Of a stretch of 54,922 bases of DNA, positions 1,081 to 24,099 are shown piece after piece. Source of the stretch: a virus (lineage: Duplodnaviria > Caudoviricetes). The notes under the pieces were generated by a model. It saw only the letters and a program-made list of their open reading frames with translations. It made no database searches and was not told the origin of the DNA. The position numbers were made by a program, and so were the translations under genes. The stretch lies in IMG/VR virus record IMGVR_UViG_3300028844_003773, positions 1-54,922 of that record; one strand, 5' to 3'. How positions within the stretch are numbered: position 1 is the stretch's first letter; every line of letters begins with the position of its first letter.

Positions 1081-3471
1081 ATGGCAACAAACATTAAAAT
1101 TACAGCACTATCAGATATAACAAGTGCAAACATGACCTACAACGATTTATTAGCCGTTGTAGACATGAACGGGACACCAGAAACCAAGAAATCAACTGTA
1201 CAATTAGCAGGTAATTTGATTCTCGCAGGTGCTGGTGGAAGTAACTTTGTACCGGCCGCAGTTGCAACTCTTGCAGGAGATGTAACAAACGCCGCTCAAC
1301 CAAACATTACTTCAGTAGGAAATCTGACAAGTGCAAACGTCACAGGAAATTTAGATGCAGGCAACGTAAACGCAACTACAGCAGTTGTAGCCGCATACTT
1401 CTCAGGTGATGGAGCAAACTTAACAAATTTACCTGCTGGTACAGCAACTAAAATTACAGACGGAACATCTAATGTTGATATCCCCACAACAGATGGAAAC
1501 GTAACTGTAGGCGTTGGTGGTACAGCAGACGTATTGATCGTAACTAGCACAGGTGCTAATGTAACTGGAACATTAAATGCAACAGGCATTATCACAGGTG
1601 ATGCAGGCGGAATATCAAACGTTGTTTATGCTAATGTAACTGGTACACCAACACTAGGTAATATCTCCCCTCTTAACTTAGACGGCAATGTATCTAATGT
1701 TCTCAGAGGAGACGGAACATTTGCCGCAGATGCAGAATCTACATATAGTGACAGCAATGTTGTTACTCTATTAAATGCATTCGGCTCTAACACAATTACA
1801 ACAACCGGTCTCGTTACTGCTGACGGTGGCGGAATATCAAACGTCCCATATGCAAACGTAACTGGTACACCTACATTAGGCAACATTTCAACTATCGACA
1901 TCGATGGATCTGGATCAAACGTATTATACGGTAACGGAGTTTTTGCTCCTGCGACAAGTCCAGCATTAACTGGAGACGGTTATCAATTATCAAACATTAC
2001 AGGTGCAAACGTTTCTGGAGAAGTATCATTCGCGGCTACTGCTAACGCAGTTGCTGGTGCTAATGTATCTGGAGAAGTCACAAACGCCGCTACAGCAAAT
2101 GCAGTAGCAGGTGCTAATGTAAGTGGTGAAGTCGGATTCTCAGCAGTTTCTAACTCAGTAGCCGGAGCAAATGTCTCCGGTGAAGTTACTTTTGCCGCAA
2201 CAGCAAACGCAGTTGCTTATGCAAATGTTTCAGGTACACCTACTTTAGGTAATATTTCAACAATCGATATTGACGGTGATGCCGCTAATGTCTTATATGG
2301 TAATGGAGTATTTGCGGCCGCAACGAGTCCAGCATTAACTGGAGATGGTTATCAATTATCAAACATTACAGGTGCTAATGTAAGTGGCGAAGTCGGATTT
2401 GCCGCAGTTGCAAACGCAGTTGCTTTGGCAAACGTATCAGGCGCAGGTAACATTGCGTCAATCAACATTGACGGAGCAGCCGGGAACGTACTATATGGTA
2501 ACGGTGTGTTCGCCGCGGCCCCAGGTGGCAGTACATACGGTGATTCAAACGTTGTTACTTTATTAGGTGCATTTAGTGCTAACCCAATTACAACAACTGG
2601 ATTAATCACAGGTGATGGTGGCGGTCTATCTAATATCGCAGGTGCAAACGTAACTGGAACAATCAATACAGCAGTTCTTGCACAAGAAGTAATCAATTCA
2701 GCACAACCAAATATCGGATCTGTTGGTACTTTAACAGCACTAAATGTTAATGATACAATCGTATCAGTAGGCTTGACAGCAAACACAGGCGACATTACAG
2801 TAACAGCAGGCGTATTTGCAGGTGACGGTGGAAGCATTTCTAACGTAGTCGGTGCTAATGTAACAGGTGAAGTTGGATTCTCAGCAGTTGCTAATAGTGT
2901 TGCTATCGCAAACGTATCTGGTGCAGGTAATATTGCAACAGTTAACTTAGACGGTAACACAGCAAATTACTTAGACGGTACAGGTTCATGGGGACCAGTT
3001 ACAGCAACTAGTGCTACAACAGCAGGTACTGTAACAACAGCCGCACAGCCTAACATTACTAGTCTCGGTACTTTAGTAGACTTAACTGTAACAGGAAACA
3101 TTGCAGGTGCAAACATCAATGCAAACACAAACGGATTTGCAATAGGTTATAAAGAAATTCCCCCTGTAGTATTATCAGCAAATGATACAATCGCACTTGA
3201 AGATTCAGGTAAACATTTCAGATCAACAACAGCAGGAAATATTACATTATCAATTCCAACAAACGCAACTGTTGCATTCCCAACAGGAACAGCAATTAGT
3301 ATTGTTGAACAAGCCGCAGGTAACATTCTAGTTAATGCTATCTCTGGTGTAACTCTTTATCAAGCAGGTAATTCAACTGCAGGTAACAGAGTGATTTCAA
3401 CATATGGAGTTGCGACATTAATGAAAGTTGATACTGATACATGGTTTATTAGCGGCACCGGAGTAAGTTAA
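1081..3471 (+). CDS. Long tail fibre with repeats and C-terminal tip-docking domain
   Basis: AAQPNITSVG and GANVSGEVxFAATANAVA repeats. C-terminal domain ...YGVATLMKVDTDTWFISGTGVS resembles those of marine phage fibres. Confidence 0.8.
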   Translation: MATNIKITALSDITSANMTYNDLLAVVDMNGTPETKKSTVQLAGNLILAGAGGSNFVPAAVATLAGDVTNAAQPNITSVGNLTSANVTGNLDAGNVNATTAVVAAYFSGDGANLTNLPAGTATKITDGTSNVDIPTTDGNVTVGVGGTADVLIVTSTGANVTGTLNATGIITGDAGGISNVVYANVTGTPTLGNISPLNLDGNVSNVLRGDGTFAADAESTYSDSNVVTLLNAFGSNTITTTGLVTADGGGISNVPYANVTGTPTLGNISTIDIDGSGSNVLYGNGVFAPATSPALTGDGYQLSNITGANVSGEVSFAATANAVAGANVSGEVTNAATANAVAGANVSGEVGFSAVSNSVAGANVSGEVTFAATANAVAYANVSGTPTLGNISTIDIDGDAANVLYGNGVFAAATSPALTGDGYQLSNITGANVSGEVGFAAVANAVALANVSGAGNIASINIDGAAGNVLYGNGVFAAAPGGSTYGDSNVVTLLGAFSANPITTTGLITGDGGGLSNIAGANVTGTINTAVLAQEVINSAQPNIGSVGTLTALNVNDTIVSVGLTANTGDITVTAGVFAGDGGSISNVVGANVTGEVGFSAVANSVAIANVSGAGNIATVNLDGNTANYLDGTGSWGPVTATSATTAGTVTTAAQPNITSLGTLVDLTVTGNIAGANINANTNGFAIGYKEIPPVVLSANDTIALEDSGKHFRSTTAGNITLSIPTNATVAFPTGTAISIVEQAAGNILVNAISGVTLYQAGNSTAGNRVISTYGVATLMKVDTDTWFISGTGVS
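1849..2424 (+). repeat. Internal duplication of about 69 codons (1849-2055 and 2218-2424) plus 18-aa tandem repeats
   Basis: YANVxGTPTLGNISTIDIDG...NVLYGNGVFA.ATSPALTGDGYQLSNITGANVSGEV occurs twice. Confidence 0.85.
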
Positions 3472-3489
3472 ATGGCAGGCGCATTGATG
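3456..3489 (+). repeat. 34-bp direct repeat, copy 1
   Basis: CACCGGAGTAAGTTAAATGGCAGGCGCATTGATG spans the fibre stop codon and the start of the next gene. Confidence 0.95.
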
Positions 3490-7503: not shown

Positions 7504-7622
7504 GTTAATCTCCTTTGCAATAGAGTAATATTATTTACTTAATGCATGAGTTTCCAATATTTTACTATATAGACCTGTGCTAATCAATAGTTAATGGGTA
7601 GATTTCAATGACCTACACATTT

Positions 7623-7805
7623 TCATGTGCCCAAATCTTTTTTGATGTCTTGTTTTTGCTTTTTTCTAAAACGTTTGTTATATTGTTGTTTAATCTTTTT
7701 TGCAACACCAGAACGAGTTAGATAAACATAATATTTACGAGCAGATGTTAGTGCATCAAATTCTGCGCCGGCATTCATAGGGATCCTTTCTTTTTTCTTA
7801 GCCAT
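7623..7805 (-). CDS. Small basic hypothetical protein
   Basis: MAKKKERIPM...; SD GGAG fits the ATG at 7805 better than the ORF-track start. Confidence 0.65.
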   Translation of the reverse strand: MAKKKERIPMNAGAEFDALTSARKYYVYLTRSGVAKKIKQQYNKRFRKKQKQDIKKDLGT

Positions 7806-7962
7806 ATTTGTACTCCACAAATGTGTAGAACTTAAAACATAAAAACGAAATGTCTAAGCAATACTCATGTATACTTATAGAGACTGACGGAAGCAAGTAA
7901 ATAGTTTTTTCATGCGTCCACTGATTACTAAATTTATACACCCTTCTTTTATATGCTTTCAT
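7798..7962 (-). CDS. Small hypothetical protein (54 aa)
   Basis: MKAYKRRVYKFSNQW...EYKYG* with SD AGGAGA. Confidence 0.65.
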   Translation of the reverse strand: MKAYKRRVYKFSNQWTHEKTIYLLPSVSISIHEYCLDISFLCFKFYTFVEYKYG

Positions 7963-7979
7963 TTTCTTCTCCTAAAAGT

Positions 7980-8056
7980 TGGTGGGCCCACTAGGACTTG
8001 AACCTAGACTCTACCGATTATGAGTCGGTTGCATTAACCAGTTATGCTATAGGCCC
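7980..8056 (-). tRNA. tRNA-Ile2 (CAU, lysidine type); Met not excluded
   Basis: Cloverleaf, anticodon loop CUCAUAA, encoded CCA. C4:G69 and C5:G68 are the TilS determinants. Confidence 0.85.
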
Positions 8057-8059
8057 AAA

Positions 8060-8134
8060 TGGGGAGGGGCAGAGTGACAGGGTTTGCATGTCTCAAGCAT
8101 CCGATTGAGGCTAGTGTTGTTCTAGCCGTACCCC
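8060..8134 (-). ncRNA. tRNA-like four-way-junction RNA ending in CCA, no D/T-loop consensus
   Basis: Closing stem GGGGUA/UGCCCC; abutting hairpins GGCUAG/CUAGCC, UCAA/UUGA, GACA/UGUC; 4-nt and 3-nt spacers to the flanking tRNAs. Confidence 0.6.
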
Positions 8135-8138
8135 AATT

Positions 8139-8214
8139 TGGCCCGCCCTCCAGGATTCGAACCTGGGACCTACTGCTTAGAAGGCAGTTGTTCTATCCAC
8201 TGAACTAAGAGCGG
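8139..8214 (-). tRNA. tRNA-Arg (UCU)
   Basis: Cloverleaf, loop CUUCUAA, GGUUCGAAUCC, CCA. Confidence 0.95.
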
Positions 8215-8242: not shown

Positions 8243-8319
8243 TGGCGCGCCTGGAAGGATTCGAACCTCCGACTTCCTGGTTCGTAGCCAGGTACTCTAT
8301 CCAACTGAGTTACAGGCGC
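8243..8319 (-). tRNA. tRNA-Arg (ACG)
   Basis: Cloverleaf, loop CUACGAA, CCA. Confidence 0.95.
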
Positions 8320-8624
8320 GGGCTAGTATCGACTGATTTGATGTTCCTTATAAGAAAACTTCTCCAACCTTCTGCTTTTGTATCAAAGACAGCAAGACTA
8401 TTTTCAGGGTTTTTCATTACCCTTTCTTTCTTTTCTTCACCTTCTTTGACTACAACTTTAGGTAAGTTGTCTGGATGCAATGTACATGTCATTACACGTT
8501 CATCACCGTTGATCTTAGTAAAAGTAACTGTTACGATATCCTCAACGAGTACATCTTTAACTTGCGATCTAAAACTGTTCCATTCTTCATCAGTCCAATT
8601 TTGATCTGGGGTCATTATTGTCAT
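8310..8624 (-). CDS. WYL_2/DUF2693-like SH3/Sm-fold protein
   Basis: VTVTFTKINGDERVMTCTL and VFDTKAEGWRSF motifs. Confidence 0.8.
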   Translation of the reverse strand: MTIMTPDQNWTDEEWNSFRSQVKDVLVEDIVTVTFTKINGDERVMTCTLHPDNLPKVVVKEGEEKKERVMKNPENSLAVFDTKAEGWRSFLIRNIKSVDTSPRL

Positions 8625-9594: not shown

Positions 9595-9623
9595 ATTATA
9601 CGGCATTTTGACCCAAATGTCAA
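9595..9623 (-). promoter_or_regulatory. Early sigma70 promoter
   Basis: AAAAAGGC-TTGACA-TTTGGGTCAAAATGCCG-TATAAT. Confidence 0.9.
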
Positions 9624-23866: not shown

Positions 23867-23869
23867 ATT

Positions 23870-24082
23870 TCATTTATTTGGATCTCCCCATGGAGTAGAT
23901 TCTTCGATAGCATCTTGGGCACACTGTATATATTCTCTGTCTTCTTCTGTTAAAACAGACCAAAACTTACTAACATTAAGAGTGTGTTCATAGACTTCTT
24001 CTGCATGATCTAAGTGATAATTGCTCTCCATCCAGGCTTGCAATTGATCCATTCTATCATTAATCTTCTCTTTAAGGTTCAA
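23870..24082 (-). CDS. Hypothetical protein between tRNAs
   Basis: 70 aa, TTG start, SD GAGGG. Confidence 0.65.
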   Translation of the reverse strand: MNLKEKINDRMDQLQAWMESNYHLDHAEEVYEHTLNVSKFWSVLTEEDREYIQCAQDAIEESTPWGDPNK

Positions 24083-24099
24083 ACTTTCCCTCTAAAATA

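What the first reader, a model, noticed from the sequence alone, without database searches (positions are those of the whole stretch)
8060..8134. 75-nt CCA-terminated cloverleaf RNA that is not a tRNA
Seen (minus strand): GGGGUA C GGCUAG-AACAACA-CUAGCC UCAA-UCGGAUGC-UUGA GACA-UGCAAACCC-UGUC ACUC UGCCCC UCCCCA. It is tRNA-sized, GC-rich in an AT-rich genome, ends in CCA, and is spaced 4 nt and 3 nt from real tRNAs. It has no D-loop GG, no UUC T-loop and no 7-nt anticodon loop at the expected place. Known: T4 tRNA clusters contain stable non-tRNA RNAs of unknown function. Inference: a processed tRNA mimic, for example a decoy for anticodon nucleases or tRNA-targeting toxins, or a ligand for the nearby Sm/WYL_2 protein.
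Basis: partly seen in the sequence, partly recalled or inferred. Interest (0 to 1): 0.72.

Follow-up and report, generated by a model that had tools for sequence, protein, structure and literature searches.

The report
Conserved non-tRNA RNA in phage tRNA array
A 69-base sequence sitting between transfer-RNA genes of an uncultured marine giant phage is not a tRNA, yet it is kept as unchanged as the tRNAs beside it, so it is probably a small RNA of unknown role like the two unexplained RNAs in phage T4's tRNA cluster.

Summary
The element is real and sits where stated: 4 nt after tRNA-Arg(UCU) and 3 nt before tRNA-Met, on the minus strand. ARAGORN and Rfam do not call it a tRNA or any other known RNA, even at E<=10.

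It occurs in 20 viral or metagenome records (12 sequence variants), always right after a tRNA-Arg(UCU). It is absent from two close relatives, from GenBank phages and from GTDB genomes.

Nucleotides 1-69 are as conserved as the tRNAs: 97.7% mean pairwise identity, 5 of 69 columns variable. The adjacent WYL_2 gene is 77% identical, and half of the flanking spacer and tail positions vary.

The CCA end is not conserved (4 of 12 variants). The cloverleaf is not established: there is no compensatory change, one change breaks a stem, and 6 of 12 variants fold best as a Y.

What is invariant is U-1, G+1, a 6-bp closing stem and an N-CC tail, which are the recognition features of RNase P.

Best reading: a selected small RNA cut out of the tRNA operon transcript, analogous but not homologous to T4 RNAC/RNAD. 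Its function is unknown. The decoy idea is untested and the link to WYL_2 is weakened.

The parts
8066..8134 (-). Conserved core of the element (RNA nt 1-69). It has a closing stem (nt 1-6 with 64-69, i.e. 8129-8134 with 8066-8071) and hairpin 1 (nt 8-26, 8109-8127). The middle part, nt 27-63 (8072-8108), folds either as two short hairpins (cloverleaf) or as one long irregular hairpin (Y).
   Evidence: Mean pairwise identity is 97.7% and 5 of 69 columns vary over 14 contigs. Pair probabilities are 0.73-0.97 for the closing stem and hairpin 1, and 0.56-0.77 for hairpins 2 and 3.
8060..8065 (-). 3' tail, U-CCC-C-A here and N-CCC-Y-W in the family. Only the three C are invariant. The CCA of this copy is not conserved.
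   Evidence: Alignment A1: C71-C73 are invariant and columns 70, 74 and 75 vary. Tail identity is 78.6%, like a spacer.
8135..8138 (-). 4-nt spacer AAUU between the CCA of tRNA-Arg(UCU) and G1. Positions -1 and -2 are U in every copy, while -3 and -4 vary.
   Evidence: the spacers are AATT, GTTT or ATTT.
8139..8214 (-). tRNA-Arg(tct). It is the upstream neighbour in all 20 records.
7980..8056 (-). tRNA-Met(cat). It is the downstream neighbour here and in 8 of 20 records. One record has tRNA-Trp there instead, and 11 have a ribosome-binding site and gene.
8243..8319 (-). tRNA-Arg(acg), the first gene of the array.
8310..8624 (-). WYL_2 (Sm-like beta-barrel) protein gene, just upstream of the array.
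   Evidence: Pfam PF10902, E 6e-11.
9595..9623 (-). Promoter-like site TTGACA-17-TATAAT (12 of 12) upstream of the minus-strand gene run that holds the array. No minus-strand terminator-like site was found between it and 7500.
   Evidence: a consensus scan only.

Best explanation
The 69-nt core is a gene for a small structured RNA that is not a tRNA. It is transcribed with the tRNAs from the same operon and released by the host's tRNA-processing enzymes. RNase P would cut 5' of G1, using the invariant U-1, the G1-C69 closing stem and the N70-C71-C72 tail. The cut for the next tRNA, or 3' trimming, would define the 3' end.

The released RNA of about 70-75 nt would then act in trans through sequence-specific contacts over most of its length. 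It is the counterpart, but not a homologue, of T4's RNAC and RNAD, which also follow tRNA-Arg.

Shown: its position, that it is not a tRNA, purifying selection, single copy, narrow distribution, and presence in RNA-library contigs. Inferred: the RNase P cut, the mature ends and action in trans. The partner is unknown. My guess is a protein or RNA of the tRNA or translation sphere.
For: (1) It lies flush in the array on the tRNA strand, after tRNA-Arg(UCU), in 20 of 20 records.

(2) The core is conserved like a tRNA. Mean pairwise identity is 97.7%, against 98.8% and 94.3% for the two tRNA-Arg, 77.3% for the WYL_2 gene and 79-87% for spacers and tail. Variable columns are 5 of 69 in the core, against 5 of 10 in the touching spacer and tail (Fisher p 0.002) and 86 of 104 third codon positions (p 2e-24).

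(3) In L031 the preceding tRNA-Arg(UCU) is only 58 of 79 identical to the window's, while the core is 67 of 69 identical.

(4) The invariant features match the RNase P determinants named in PMC11143913 (passages read): the N-1 contact, G+1, and pairing to the discriminator plus CC. The same passages list phage M3 RNA, phage C4 RNA and pre-4.5S RNA as non-tRNA substrates. The variable positions fall just outside these features.

(5) The U5->C change keeps pair 5-65, turning U-G into C-G.

(6) Contigs from RNA libraries of two studies carry it. One contig per run covers 8066-8177 with 0 differences at depth 34-38, against 4-10 for neighbouring gene contigs. Others cover 7604-8095, 7711-8095 and 7892-8077, joining it to tRNA-Arg and to tRNA-Met plus the next ORF.

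(7) A promoter-like site lies upstream, with no minus-strand terminator-like site in between.

(8) T4 has the same layout: tRNA-Arg, then rnaD after 1 nt, then rnaC after 6 nt.
Against: - No compensatory change supports any helix: 0 of 20 pairs for the cloverleaf and 0 of 22 for the Y.
- Folding energy is unremarkable, z = -1.46.
- The family is narrow and nearly invariant, so recent horizontal spread of the tRNA-Arg + element module could add to the apparent conservation.
- RNA-library contigs cannot show discrete ends or strand, and DNA carry-over is not excluded (warning).
- Two close relatives (L009, L010) lack the element, so it is dispensable.
- No partner or target was found. Antisense matches in three phage records are at chance level.
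- The closing stem plus hairpin 3 gives 10 bp. PMC11143913 describes the 12 bp of a tRNA as RNase P's measuring device.
Confidence: 0.55

Rival explanations
1. It acts in cis as a processing or stability element, not as a free RNA. A tRNA-shaped fold at the end of the array would give RNase P a cut site. That cut frees the 3' end of tRNA-Arg(UCU) and leaves the downstream message with a base-paired 5' end that resists decay.
For: It always follows tRNA-Arg(UCU). In 11 of 20 records it is followed within about 8 nt by a ribosome-binding site and gene. L031 shares with L109 not only the element but also the next 11 nt up to AGAGG. RNA-library contigs join it to the downstream ORF.
Against: In 9 of 20 records another tRNA follows, so the element would be cut off from the message. 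A shape-only signal does not explain why loops and linkers are invariant. L009 and L010 do without it.
Confidence: 0.2
2. It is a decayed tRNA gene (pseudogene) that survives as a spacer and hitch-hikes with the neighbouring tRNAs.
For: It has tRNA size, an acceptor-like stem with a C-rich tail and a place in a tRNA array. Partial tRNA duplications and chimeras do arise in this array (L008, L107). It shares an 11-of-12 match with the D-arm region of tRNA-Arg(tct).
Against: It has no residual score with the Rfam tRNA model even at E<=10. ARAGORN finds nothing on this strand with 12 relaxed settings. The D-arm match is reached by 66 of 1000 shuffles. The core varies far less than the spacers touching it, which neutral decay does not predict.
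Confidence: 0.1
3. It works at the DNA level or is a small mobile insert. It could be a recombination or endonuclease site, or a miniature element moved between phage tRNA clusters.
For: It shows presence/absence polymorphism with a 3-nt ATT on both sides of the indel (L009 against L109). A near-identical copy lies in a distant gene context in L031.
Against: There is one copy per record in G000, G001 and G002. There are no terminal inverted repeats beyond GGGG/CCCC, and no transposase or homing-endonuclease hit among the 10 neighbouring ORFs scanned. It always has the same orientation and the same partner tRNA. ATT microhomology fits deletion equally well.
Confidence: 0.08
4. It is an unconventional decoding tRNA, for example one with an 8-nt anticodon loop (CUCAA-YCGGAUGC-UUGAG) that reads a four-base codon.
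For: A 5-bp stem with an 8-nt loop can be drawn at the place of an anticodon arm, and the loop's first position varies only U/C (read).
Against: There is no U at the position before the would-be anticodon and no D-loop GG or T-loop. The stems give 6+4 bp in place of 7+5, and 4 unpaired nt lie between hairpin 3 and the closing stem. The CCA is not conserved. A29->C breaks this stem in 2 of 12 variants. Neither tRNA detector scores it.
Confidence: 0.03

Closest known systems
Phage T4 RNAC (species 1, 139 nt) and RNAD (species 2, 119 nt)
   Same: Both are small non-tRNA RNAs encoded inside a phage tRNA cluster, on the tRNA strand. They lie directly after tRNA-Arg, at 1 nt and 6 nt spacings in T4 and 4 nt here. 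Their role is unknown (PMC3014915 passage; PMC9697503 passage). The window's major head protein matches the same PHROG family as T4-type heads, and its best cultured relatives are Vibrio phage 2.275.O (69%) and PA5oct (66%).
   Different: There is no detectable homology. Local alignment scores fall within the shuffle range: 7 against 7.8+-1.3, and 11 against 7.7+-1.4. Model R1 with filters off does not hit either RNA. This element is half their size. T4 rnaC carries a canonical T-arm sequence, which this element lacks.
C4 antisense RNA of phages P1/P7, and other non-tRNA RNase P substrates (pre-4.5S RNA, phage M3 RNA)
   Same: These are short structured RNAs whose 5' end is made by RNase P (PMC11143913 passage). 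A size of about 77 nt for C4, and its action on the message it is co-transcribed with, are recalled and not read here. The element has the U-1, G+1 and N-CC determinants.
   Different: There is no Rfam match, and I did not check that a C4 family is among the 4227 searched. No complementary target site above chance was found in the window or in two related records. Cleavage itself is untested.
tRNA (Rfam RF00005)
   Same: It shares the size, the position in the array, an acceptor-like closing stem with a single-stranded C-rich tail, and three hairpins in one of two near-equal folds.
   Different: It fails every defining feature tested (see Membership tests).
Bacterial Y RNA (YrlA) with Ro60/TROVE
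   Same: Y RNAs are tRNA-mimicking non-coding RNAs. Some jumbo phages encode a Ro/TROVE protein (PMC7824862 passage; PMC4201824, abstract only, from the listing).
   Different: There is no Rfam match. No TROVE gene was found in 4 of 4 phage fragments searched, which are only 16-37% complete. That Y RNAs carry a T-arm or D-arm mimic is recalled; no such mimic is seen here.

Membership tests
tRNA (RF00005) | Scores with the tRNA covariance model (gathering score 29 bits) | tested here: not met
   No hit over 8060-8134 at gathering score or at E<=10 on 501 nt and on 96 nt. The three neighbouring tRNAs score 69-72 bits.
tRNA (RF00005) | Called by a tRNA gene finder | tested here: not met
   ARAGORN default. 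Of 12 relaxed, mitochondrial or intron option sets, 11 found nothing. The 60% threshold gave a call only on the opposite strand. tRNAscan-SE was not available.
tRNA (RF00005) | 7-bp acceptor stacked on a 5-bp T stem; D-loop GG; T-loop UUCRA; 7-nt anticodon loop with U33 | tested here: not met
   The stems are 6 bp and 4 bp, with 4 unpaired nt between them. The loops are AACAACA, YCGGAUGC (8 nt) and UGCAAAYCC (9 nt).
tRNA (RF00005) | 3' CCA, encoded or added | tested here: inconclusive
   CCA is encoded in 4 of 12 variants only; N-CCC is invariant. Addition after transcription is not testable here.
T4 RNAC/RNAD-type stable RNAs of phage tRNA clusters | Encoded within the tRNA cluster, same strand, next to tRNA-Arg | tested here: met
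T4 RNAC/RNAD-type stable RNAs of phage tRNA clusters | Sequence or structure homology to rnaC or rnaD | tested here: not met
T4 RNAC/RNAD-type stable RNAs of phage tRNA clusters | Accumulates as a discrete stable RNA during infection | not testable with these tools
   Only assembled contigs of RNA libraries were available. They show presence, not ends or stability.
RNase P substrates (functional class) | N-1 (U favoured), G+1 at the base of a helix, and discriminator plus CC free to pair with the P15 loop | tested here: met
   U-1, G1-C69 and N70-C71-C72 are present in all 12 variants. The determinants are as described in PMC11143913. That U is the favoured base at -1 is recalled.
RNase P substrates (functional class) | Is actually cleaved by RNase P | not testable with these tools
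   Needs an in vitro or in vivo assay.
C4-type antisense RNA | Loop sequences complementary to a target in the phage's own transcripts | tested here: not met
   10-mer antisense matches were 3, 18 and 11, against about 7, 16 and 8 expected, in the window, G001 and G002. Loop k-mers are at or below expectation except for the low-complexity UGUUGUU. The records are only 16-37% complete, so a target elsewhere is not excluded.

The most novel reading that the evidence does not exclude
The element is a new class of phage small RNA. It is roughly tRNA-sized and tRNA-shaped, matured by RNase P, and not a decoder. It would work as a sequence-specific decoy or sponge for a host factor that handles tRNA, such as a tRNA-cleaving defence nuclease, a tRNA-modifying or CCA-handling enzyme, or a GGA-binding regulator. 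The same logic may explain the 50-year-old puzzle of T4 RNAC/RNAD, which occupy the same slot after tRNA-Arg.
Probability: 0.15. Interest if true: 0.8.

Novelty: new variant of a known kind. Interest (0 to 1): 0.45.

Why it matters
Phage tRNA clusters are now read as counter-defence and codon-supply modules. The non-tRNA RNAs embedded in them, T4 RNAC and RNAD, have had no function assigned (PMC3014915). This element is a second, unrelated example in the same slot after tRNA-Arg(UCU), in uncultured marine jumbo phages. It shows tRNA-grade purifying selection. That suggests such riders are a recurrent, selected feature of the arrays and not debris. It is only 69 nt long and could be tested for RNase P cleavage, structure probing and pull-downs. 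It is also a candidate new RNA family absent from Rfam. The limits are a narrow distribution, no covariation and no cultured host.

Tried and rejected
- Known RNA families. Rfam was searched at gathering score and at E<=10, and nothing matched. I assume, from recall, that the tRNA, ribozyme, Y RNA, C4 and SRP families are among the 4227 searched. The HDV-like ribozymes found next to tRNAs in some phages (recalled) were considered. They do not fit by topology, because the partner of the 5' strand lies 6 nt from the 3' end and leaves no room for the further helices.\n\n- Distant homologues, sought for covariation. Six IMG/VR pattern scans anchored on stems, loops or the 5' or 3' halves returned only the same 5 records plus chance hits: L029, L030, L032, L091, L092 and 58 of 63 stretches. 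One metagenome scan gave 17 of 17 true but near-identical copies. Two GTDB scans gave 0. Blastn against GenBank phages gave no match at E<=1. Model R1 gave nothing new in 23 sources, in G001-G003 (L099 and L101 were not held and so not searched), in Vibrio phage 2.275.O or PA5oct (with no first-look candidates, so a weak negative), or in the T4 tRNA region.\n\n- Derivation from a neighbouring tRNA. Local alignments to the window's 6 tRNAs all fall within the shuffle range.\n\n- Antisense targets. Matches are at chance level. An 8-nt match of loop 3 to the anticodon arm of tRNA-Ala(UGC), and a recurring 10- to 11-mer inside a small ORF, are within expectation.\n\n- Short peptide reading. The only AUG opens a frame whose end differs between contexts, and one substitution is non-synonymous (read). 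Rejected.\n\n- Ro60/TROVE partner. None was found in 4 fragments.\n\n- Analogous tRNA-sized gaps in cultured relatives. The 72-nt gap in PA5oct is an AT-rich spacer.

Full report
**What is there**

On the minus strand the window carries tRNA-Arg(acg) at 8319-8243, tRNA-Arg(tct) at 8214-8139 and tRNA-Met(cat) at 8056-7980 (ARAGORN; Rfam tRNA model at 69-72 bits). The 75 nt from 8134 to 8060 fill the gap between the last two. They leave 4 nt (AAUU) on the 5' side and 3 nt (UUU) on the 3' side.

The stretch is 56% G+C, against 27-45% in the neighbouring coding sequence. The window is an IMG/VR virus record that CheckV rates 16% complete. Its major head protein is 69% identical to that of Vibrio phage 2.275.O (349 kb) and 66% identical to PA5oct (287 kb). 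A related record of 128 kb is rated 37% complete. The source is therefore an uncultured marine jumbo phage.

A 12-of-12 sigma-70 consensus site lies at 9623-9595 (-). The scan found no minus-strand terminator-like site down to 7500. The phosphoesterase gene, the small ORFs, the WYL_2 gene (Pfam PF10902, E 6e-11), the tRNAs and the element therefore look like one transcription unit. This rests on a consensus scan only.

**It is not a tRNA or any curated RNA**

- ARAGORN does not call it with default options.
- Of 12 relaxed option sets, 11 gave nothing. A 60% threshold gave a 'tRNA-SeC' on the opposite strand, which I regard as noise.
- Rfam 15 gives no match over it at gathering score or at E<=10 on 501 nt.
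- On the 96-nt stretch alone the only hit is a partial microRNA match at E 9.7.
- Its predicted loops are AACAACA, UCGGAUGC and UGCAAACCC. They hold no D-loop GG, no T-loop UUC and no 7-nt anticodon loop with U33.
- Local alignment to each of the window's six tRNAs stays within the range of shuffles. The best is an 11-of-12 match to the D-arm region of tRNA-Arg(tct), which 66 of 1000 shuffles reach.

**The fold**

The energy is ordinary, with z = -1.46 and 13 of 200 shuffles folding as well. The shape is less ordinary. Only 10 of 2000 dinucleotide shuffles give a terminal stem of at least 5 bp closing three branches, and 26 of 2000 give at least two branches.

Pair probabilities are high for the closing stem (0.73-0.91) and hairpin 1 (0.96-0.97). 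They are middling for hairpins 2 and 3 (0.56-0.77).

Across the 12 sequence variants:
- 5 fold best as this cloverleaf.
- 1 (L031) folds as a modified cloverleaf.
- 6 fold best as a Y, in which nt 30-58 form one long irregular hairpin: 30-31/57-58, 33-35/53-55, 36-38/48-50 and 40-41/45-46.

The few substitutions do not decide between the two folds:
- U5->C keeps pair 5-65, turning U-G into C-G, in both models.
- A29->C breaks a cloverleaf pair in 2 variants but is unpaired in the Y.
- U31->C turns U-G into C-G in the Y.
- C53->U makes an A-U pair in the Y in 3 variants, where the other 9 have an A-C mismatch.
- No pair shows a change on both sides: 0 of 20 for the cloverleaf and 0 of 22 for the Y.

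Only the closing stem and hairpin 1 are therefore firm. 'Cloverleaf' is one of two near-equal readings.

**Relatives**

Pattern scans of IMG/VR, anchored in turn on stems, loops and both halves, found the element in five further records. The other stretches were chance matches, as shown by reading or aligning them. A loop-anchored scan of metagenome contigs found 17 stretches, all true copies. After removing three records that occur in both collections, this gives 20 records and 12 distinct 75-nt sequences.

In all 20 records the element follows a tRNA-Arg(tct) after a 4-nt spacer (AATT, GTTT or ATTT). Positions -1 and -2 are always T. Downstream lies tRNA-Met in 8 records, tRNA-Trp in 1, and a ribosome-binding site with a gene in 11.

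Two close relatives, L009 and L010, lack the element. Their WYL_2 proteins are 86% and 88% identical to the window's. In them the tRNA-Arg(tct) runs straight into the ribosome-binding site, and the indel is flanked by ATT on both sides.

No copy was found in:
- GenBank phages, by blastn at E<=1.
- One genome of each GTDB species, with two patterns.
- Vibrio phage 2.275.O, PA5oct or the T4 tRNA region, with a covariance model built from the 12 variants.

The model found no second copy in the window or in 22 other loci. It found one copy in each of two related records and none in a third. These methods reach only close or moderately diverged copies, so 'narrow family' means narrow at that reach.

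**Selection**

I aligned the region from the WYL_2 gene to the element over 14 of the 19 non-identical records. I dropped L031 (different upstream genes), L093, L104 and L105 (too little upstream DNA) and L108 (same contig as L007).

| Segment | Mean pairwise identity | Variable columns |
|---|---|---|
| WYL_2 gene | 77.3% | 180 of 312 (86 of 104 third codon positions) |
| tRNA-Arg(acg) | 94.3% | not recorded |
| 28-nt spacer | 86.6% | 14 of 28 |
| tRNA-Arg(tct) | 98.8% | not recorded |
| 4-nt spacer | 78.6% | 2 of 4 |
| Element nt 1-69 | 97.7% | 5 of 69 |
| Tail nt 70-75 | 78.6% | 3 of 6 |

The core varies less than the ten positions touching it (Fisher p 0.002). It also varies less than all spacer and tail positions (19 of 38, p 9e-7) and less than third codon positions (p 2e-24). 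These tests treat columns as independent and ignore shared ancestry, so they are indicative only.

In L031, whose neighbouring genes are different, the tRNA-Arg(tct) is only 58 of 79 identical to the window's. The core of the element is 67 of 69 identical, and the AATT spacer is the same. Either the core is under very strong constraint, or it has moved between phages recently, or both. The variation right at its borders shows that time enough has passed for unconstrained sites to change.

**Where the constraint ends**

Constraint stops at G1 on the 5' side. On the 3' side it stops at C69, plus three further invariant C at positions 71-73. Positions 70, 74 and 75 vary. The tail reads UCCCCA, ACCCCU, UCCCCU, UCCCUA or ACCCUA. 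Only 4 of 12 variants, or 9 of 20 records, end in CCA. 'CCA-terminated' is therefore true of this copy but is not a property of the family.

**How it most likely works**

The invariant set is U-1, G+1 at the foot of a 6-bp G+C-rich stem, and a free N-C-C behind it. This is the set of contacts by which bacterial RNase P holds a substrate: the N-1 contact with A248, the G+1/C+72 pair, and pairing of the discriminator, C74 and C75 with the P15 loop. I read this in passages of PMC11143913. The same passages list non-tRNA substrates such as pre-4.5S RNA, phage M3 RNA and phage C4 antisense RNA.

I infer that RNase P cuts 5' of G1. That cut would also leave tRNA-Arg(UCU) with a 4-nt trailer. The 3' end of the element would be set by the RNase P cut for the next tRNA, or by trimming. 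It is recalled, not read here, that runs of C stall RNase T, which could explain the invariant CCC.

Against this, the closing stem plus hairpin 3 stack to 10 bp. PMC11143913 describes the 12 bp of a tRNA as a measuring device.

Loops and linkers are as invariant as stems. The released RNA therefore probably works through sequence-specific contacts and not through shape alone. I could not identify the partner.

**Expression**

Six RNA-library runs hold part of the stretch, and I laid four of them. In two runs of one study a contig covers 8066-8177 without a difference, at depth 34-38. Contigs of the flanking genes have depth 4-10. Other contigs join the element to tRNA-Met and the next ORF (7604-8095, 7711-8095). 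A run of a second study has a contig over 7892-8077.

This shows that the sequence is present in RNA libraries and is joined to its neighbours, as a precursor would be. It does not show ends, strand or stability. DNA carry-over is not excluded, contig depth is a poor measure, and the contig break at 8066 coincides with the polymorphic position 70.

**Comparison with what is known**

The closest known things are T4's RNAC and RNAD. In the T4 record, tRNA-Arg (71173-71247, minus strand) is followed after 1 nt by rnaD (119 nt) and after 6 more nt by rnaC (139 nt). Its printed sequence carries the anticodon TCT. A review passage says that their biological roles are unknown (PMC3014915). An omics paper calls them late RNAs of unknown function (PMC9697503).

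The layout is the same here, but the sequences are unrelated by alignment and by the covariance model. T4 rnaC also carries a canonical T-arm sequence, which this element lacks. I therefore file the element as working like, but not being a member of, that pair.

C4-type antisense action was tested and not supported. Antisense 10-mers number 3, 18 and 11, against about 7, 16 and 8 expected, in three phage records. Those records are only 16-37% complete. A Y-RNA/Ro60 reading has no support.

**The WYL_2 idea**

WYL_2 homologues lie just upstream of tRNA genes in 15 of 23 IMG/VR loci, most of which have no element. L009 and L010 have WYL_2 without the element. L031 has the element but no WYL_2 homologue at E<=1e-3 in its 8.5 kb.

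WYL_2 diverges to 53-59% identity in L107, L102 and L109, while the element's core stays at least 93% identical in every pair of records. The association is with tRNA arrays in general and not with this element. A general RNA-binding role for WYL_2 remains possible but untested.

**Verdict**

The element is real, selected and apparently undescribed. It is a small RNA-like element of a narrow clade of marine jumbo phages and occupies the slot after tRNA-Arg(UCU) that T4 fills with RNAD and RNAC. It is not a tRNA, not reliably a cloverleaf and not reliably CCA-ended.

RNase P-type maturation is the best-supported step of its mechanism, but it is inferred. Its function is open, and a decoy role is possible but has no specific support. 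I searched print only for the T4 RNAs and for phage tRNA-like RNAs. I did not find this element described, but those three searches cannot show that it is not in print. No supplementary files were consulted.

Noticed in passing
window 8310-8624 (-); L006-L010, L012, L015-L019, L021-L024: Genes for WYL_2 (PF10902, Sm-like barrel) proteins lie immediately upstream of tRNA genes in 15 of 23 viral loci. The tRNAs differ between loci (Arg, Thr, Asn). This suggests a link between this uncharacterised protein family and phage tRNA arrays.
   Followed up: partly
L008 about 3383-3479: A tandem duplication of the 3' half of tRNA-Arg(acg) plus its spacer lies between the two tRNA-Arg genes. The array is being reshaped by partial duplications.
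   Followed up: no
L107 about 2563-2639: The tRNA-Arg(tct) has a replaced 5' end (74 of 78 aligned columns identical to the window's). Its tRNA-Arg(acg) is strongly diverged, with many paired changes, while the element next to it is unchanged apart from C7->U.
   Followed up: partly
window 9595-9623 (-): There is a perfect sigma-70 consensus, TTGACA-17 nt-TATAAT, in front of the phosphoesterase gene and the tRNA operon.
   Followed up: no
L115 (MG592671.1 185097-185236): Vibrio phage 2.275.O has a 140-nt, strongly folding (-43 kcal/mol) non-tRNA stretch between tRNA-Pro and tRNA-Thr. It is unrelated in sequence to the element. It may be another RNA riding in a tRNA array.
   Followed up: no
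MG592671.1 171224-171339 and 211223-211355: Two matches to the tRNA model are 116 and 133 nt long (38 bits each). They may be tRNAs with inserts or introns.
   Followed up: no
L116 (T4, NC_000866 70908-71046): T4 rnaC contains a canonical T-arm sequence (GGGTTCGAATCCC) near its 3' end, so part of it is tRNA-like.
   Followed up: no
window 8080-8087 and 23837 (-): Loop 3 of the element (UGCAAACC) is complementary to 8 nt of the anticodon arm of the window's own tRNA-Ala(tgc), including the anticodon. Matches of this length occur at the frequency expected by chance.
   Followed up: partly
window 23867-24099 (-): The second tRNA cluster (Thr, Ala, Leu) has a 233-nt gap between tRNA-Thr and tRNA-Ala. 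It reads as a short ORF with its own ribosome-binding site, not as an RNA like the element.
   Followed up: no
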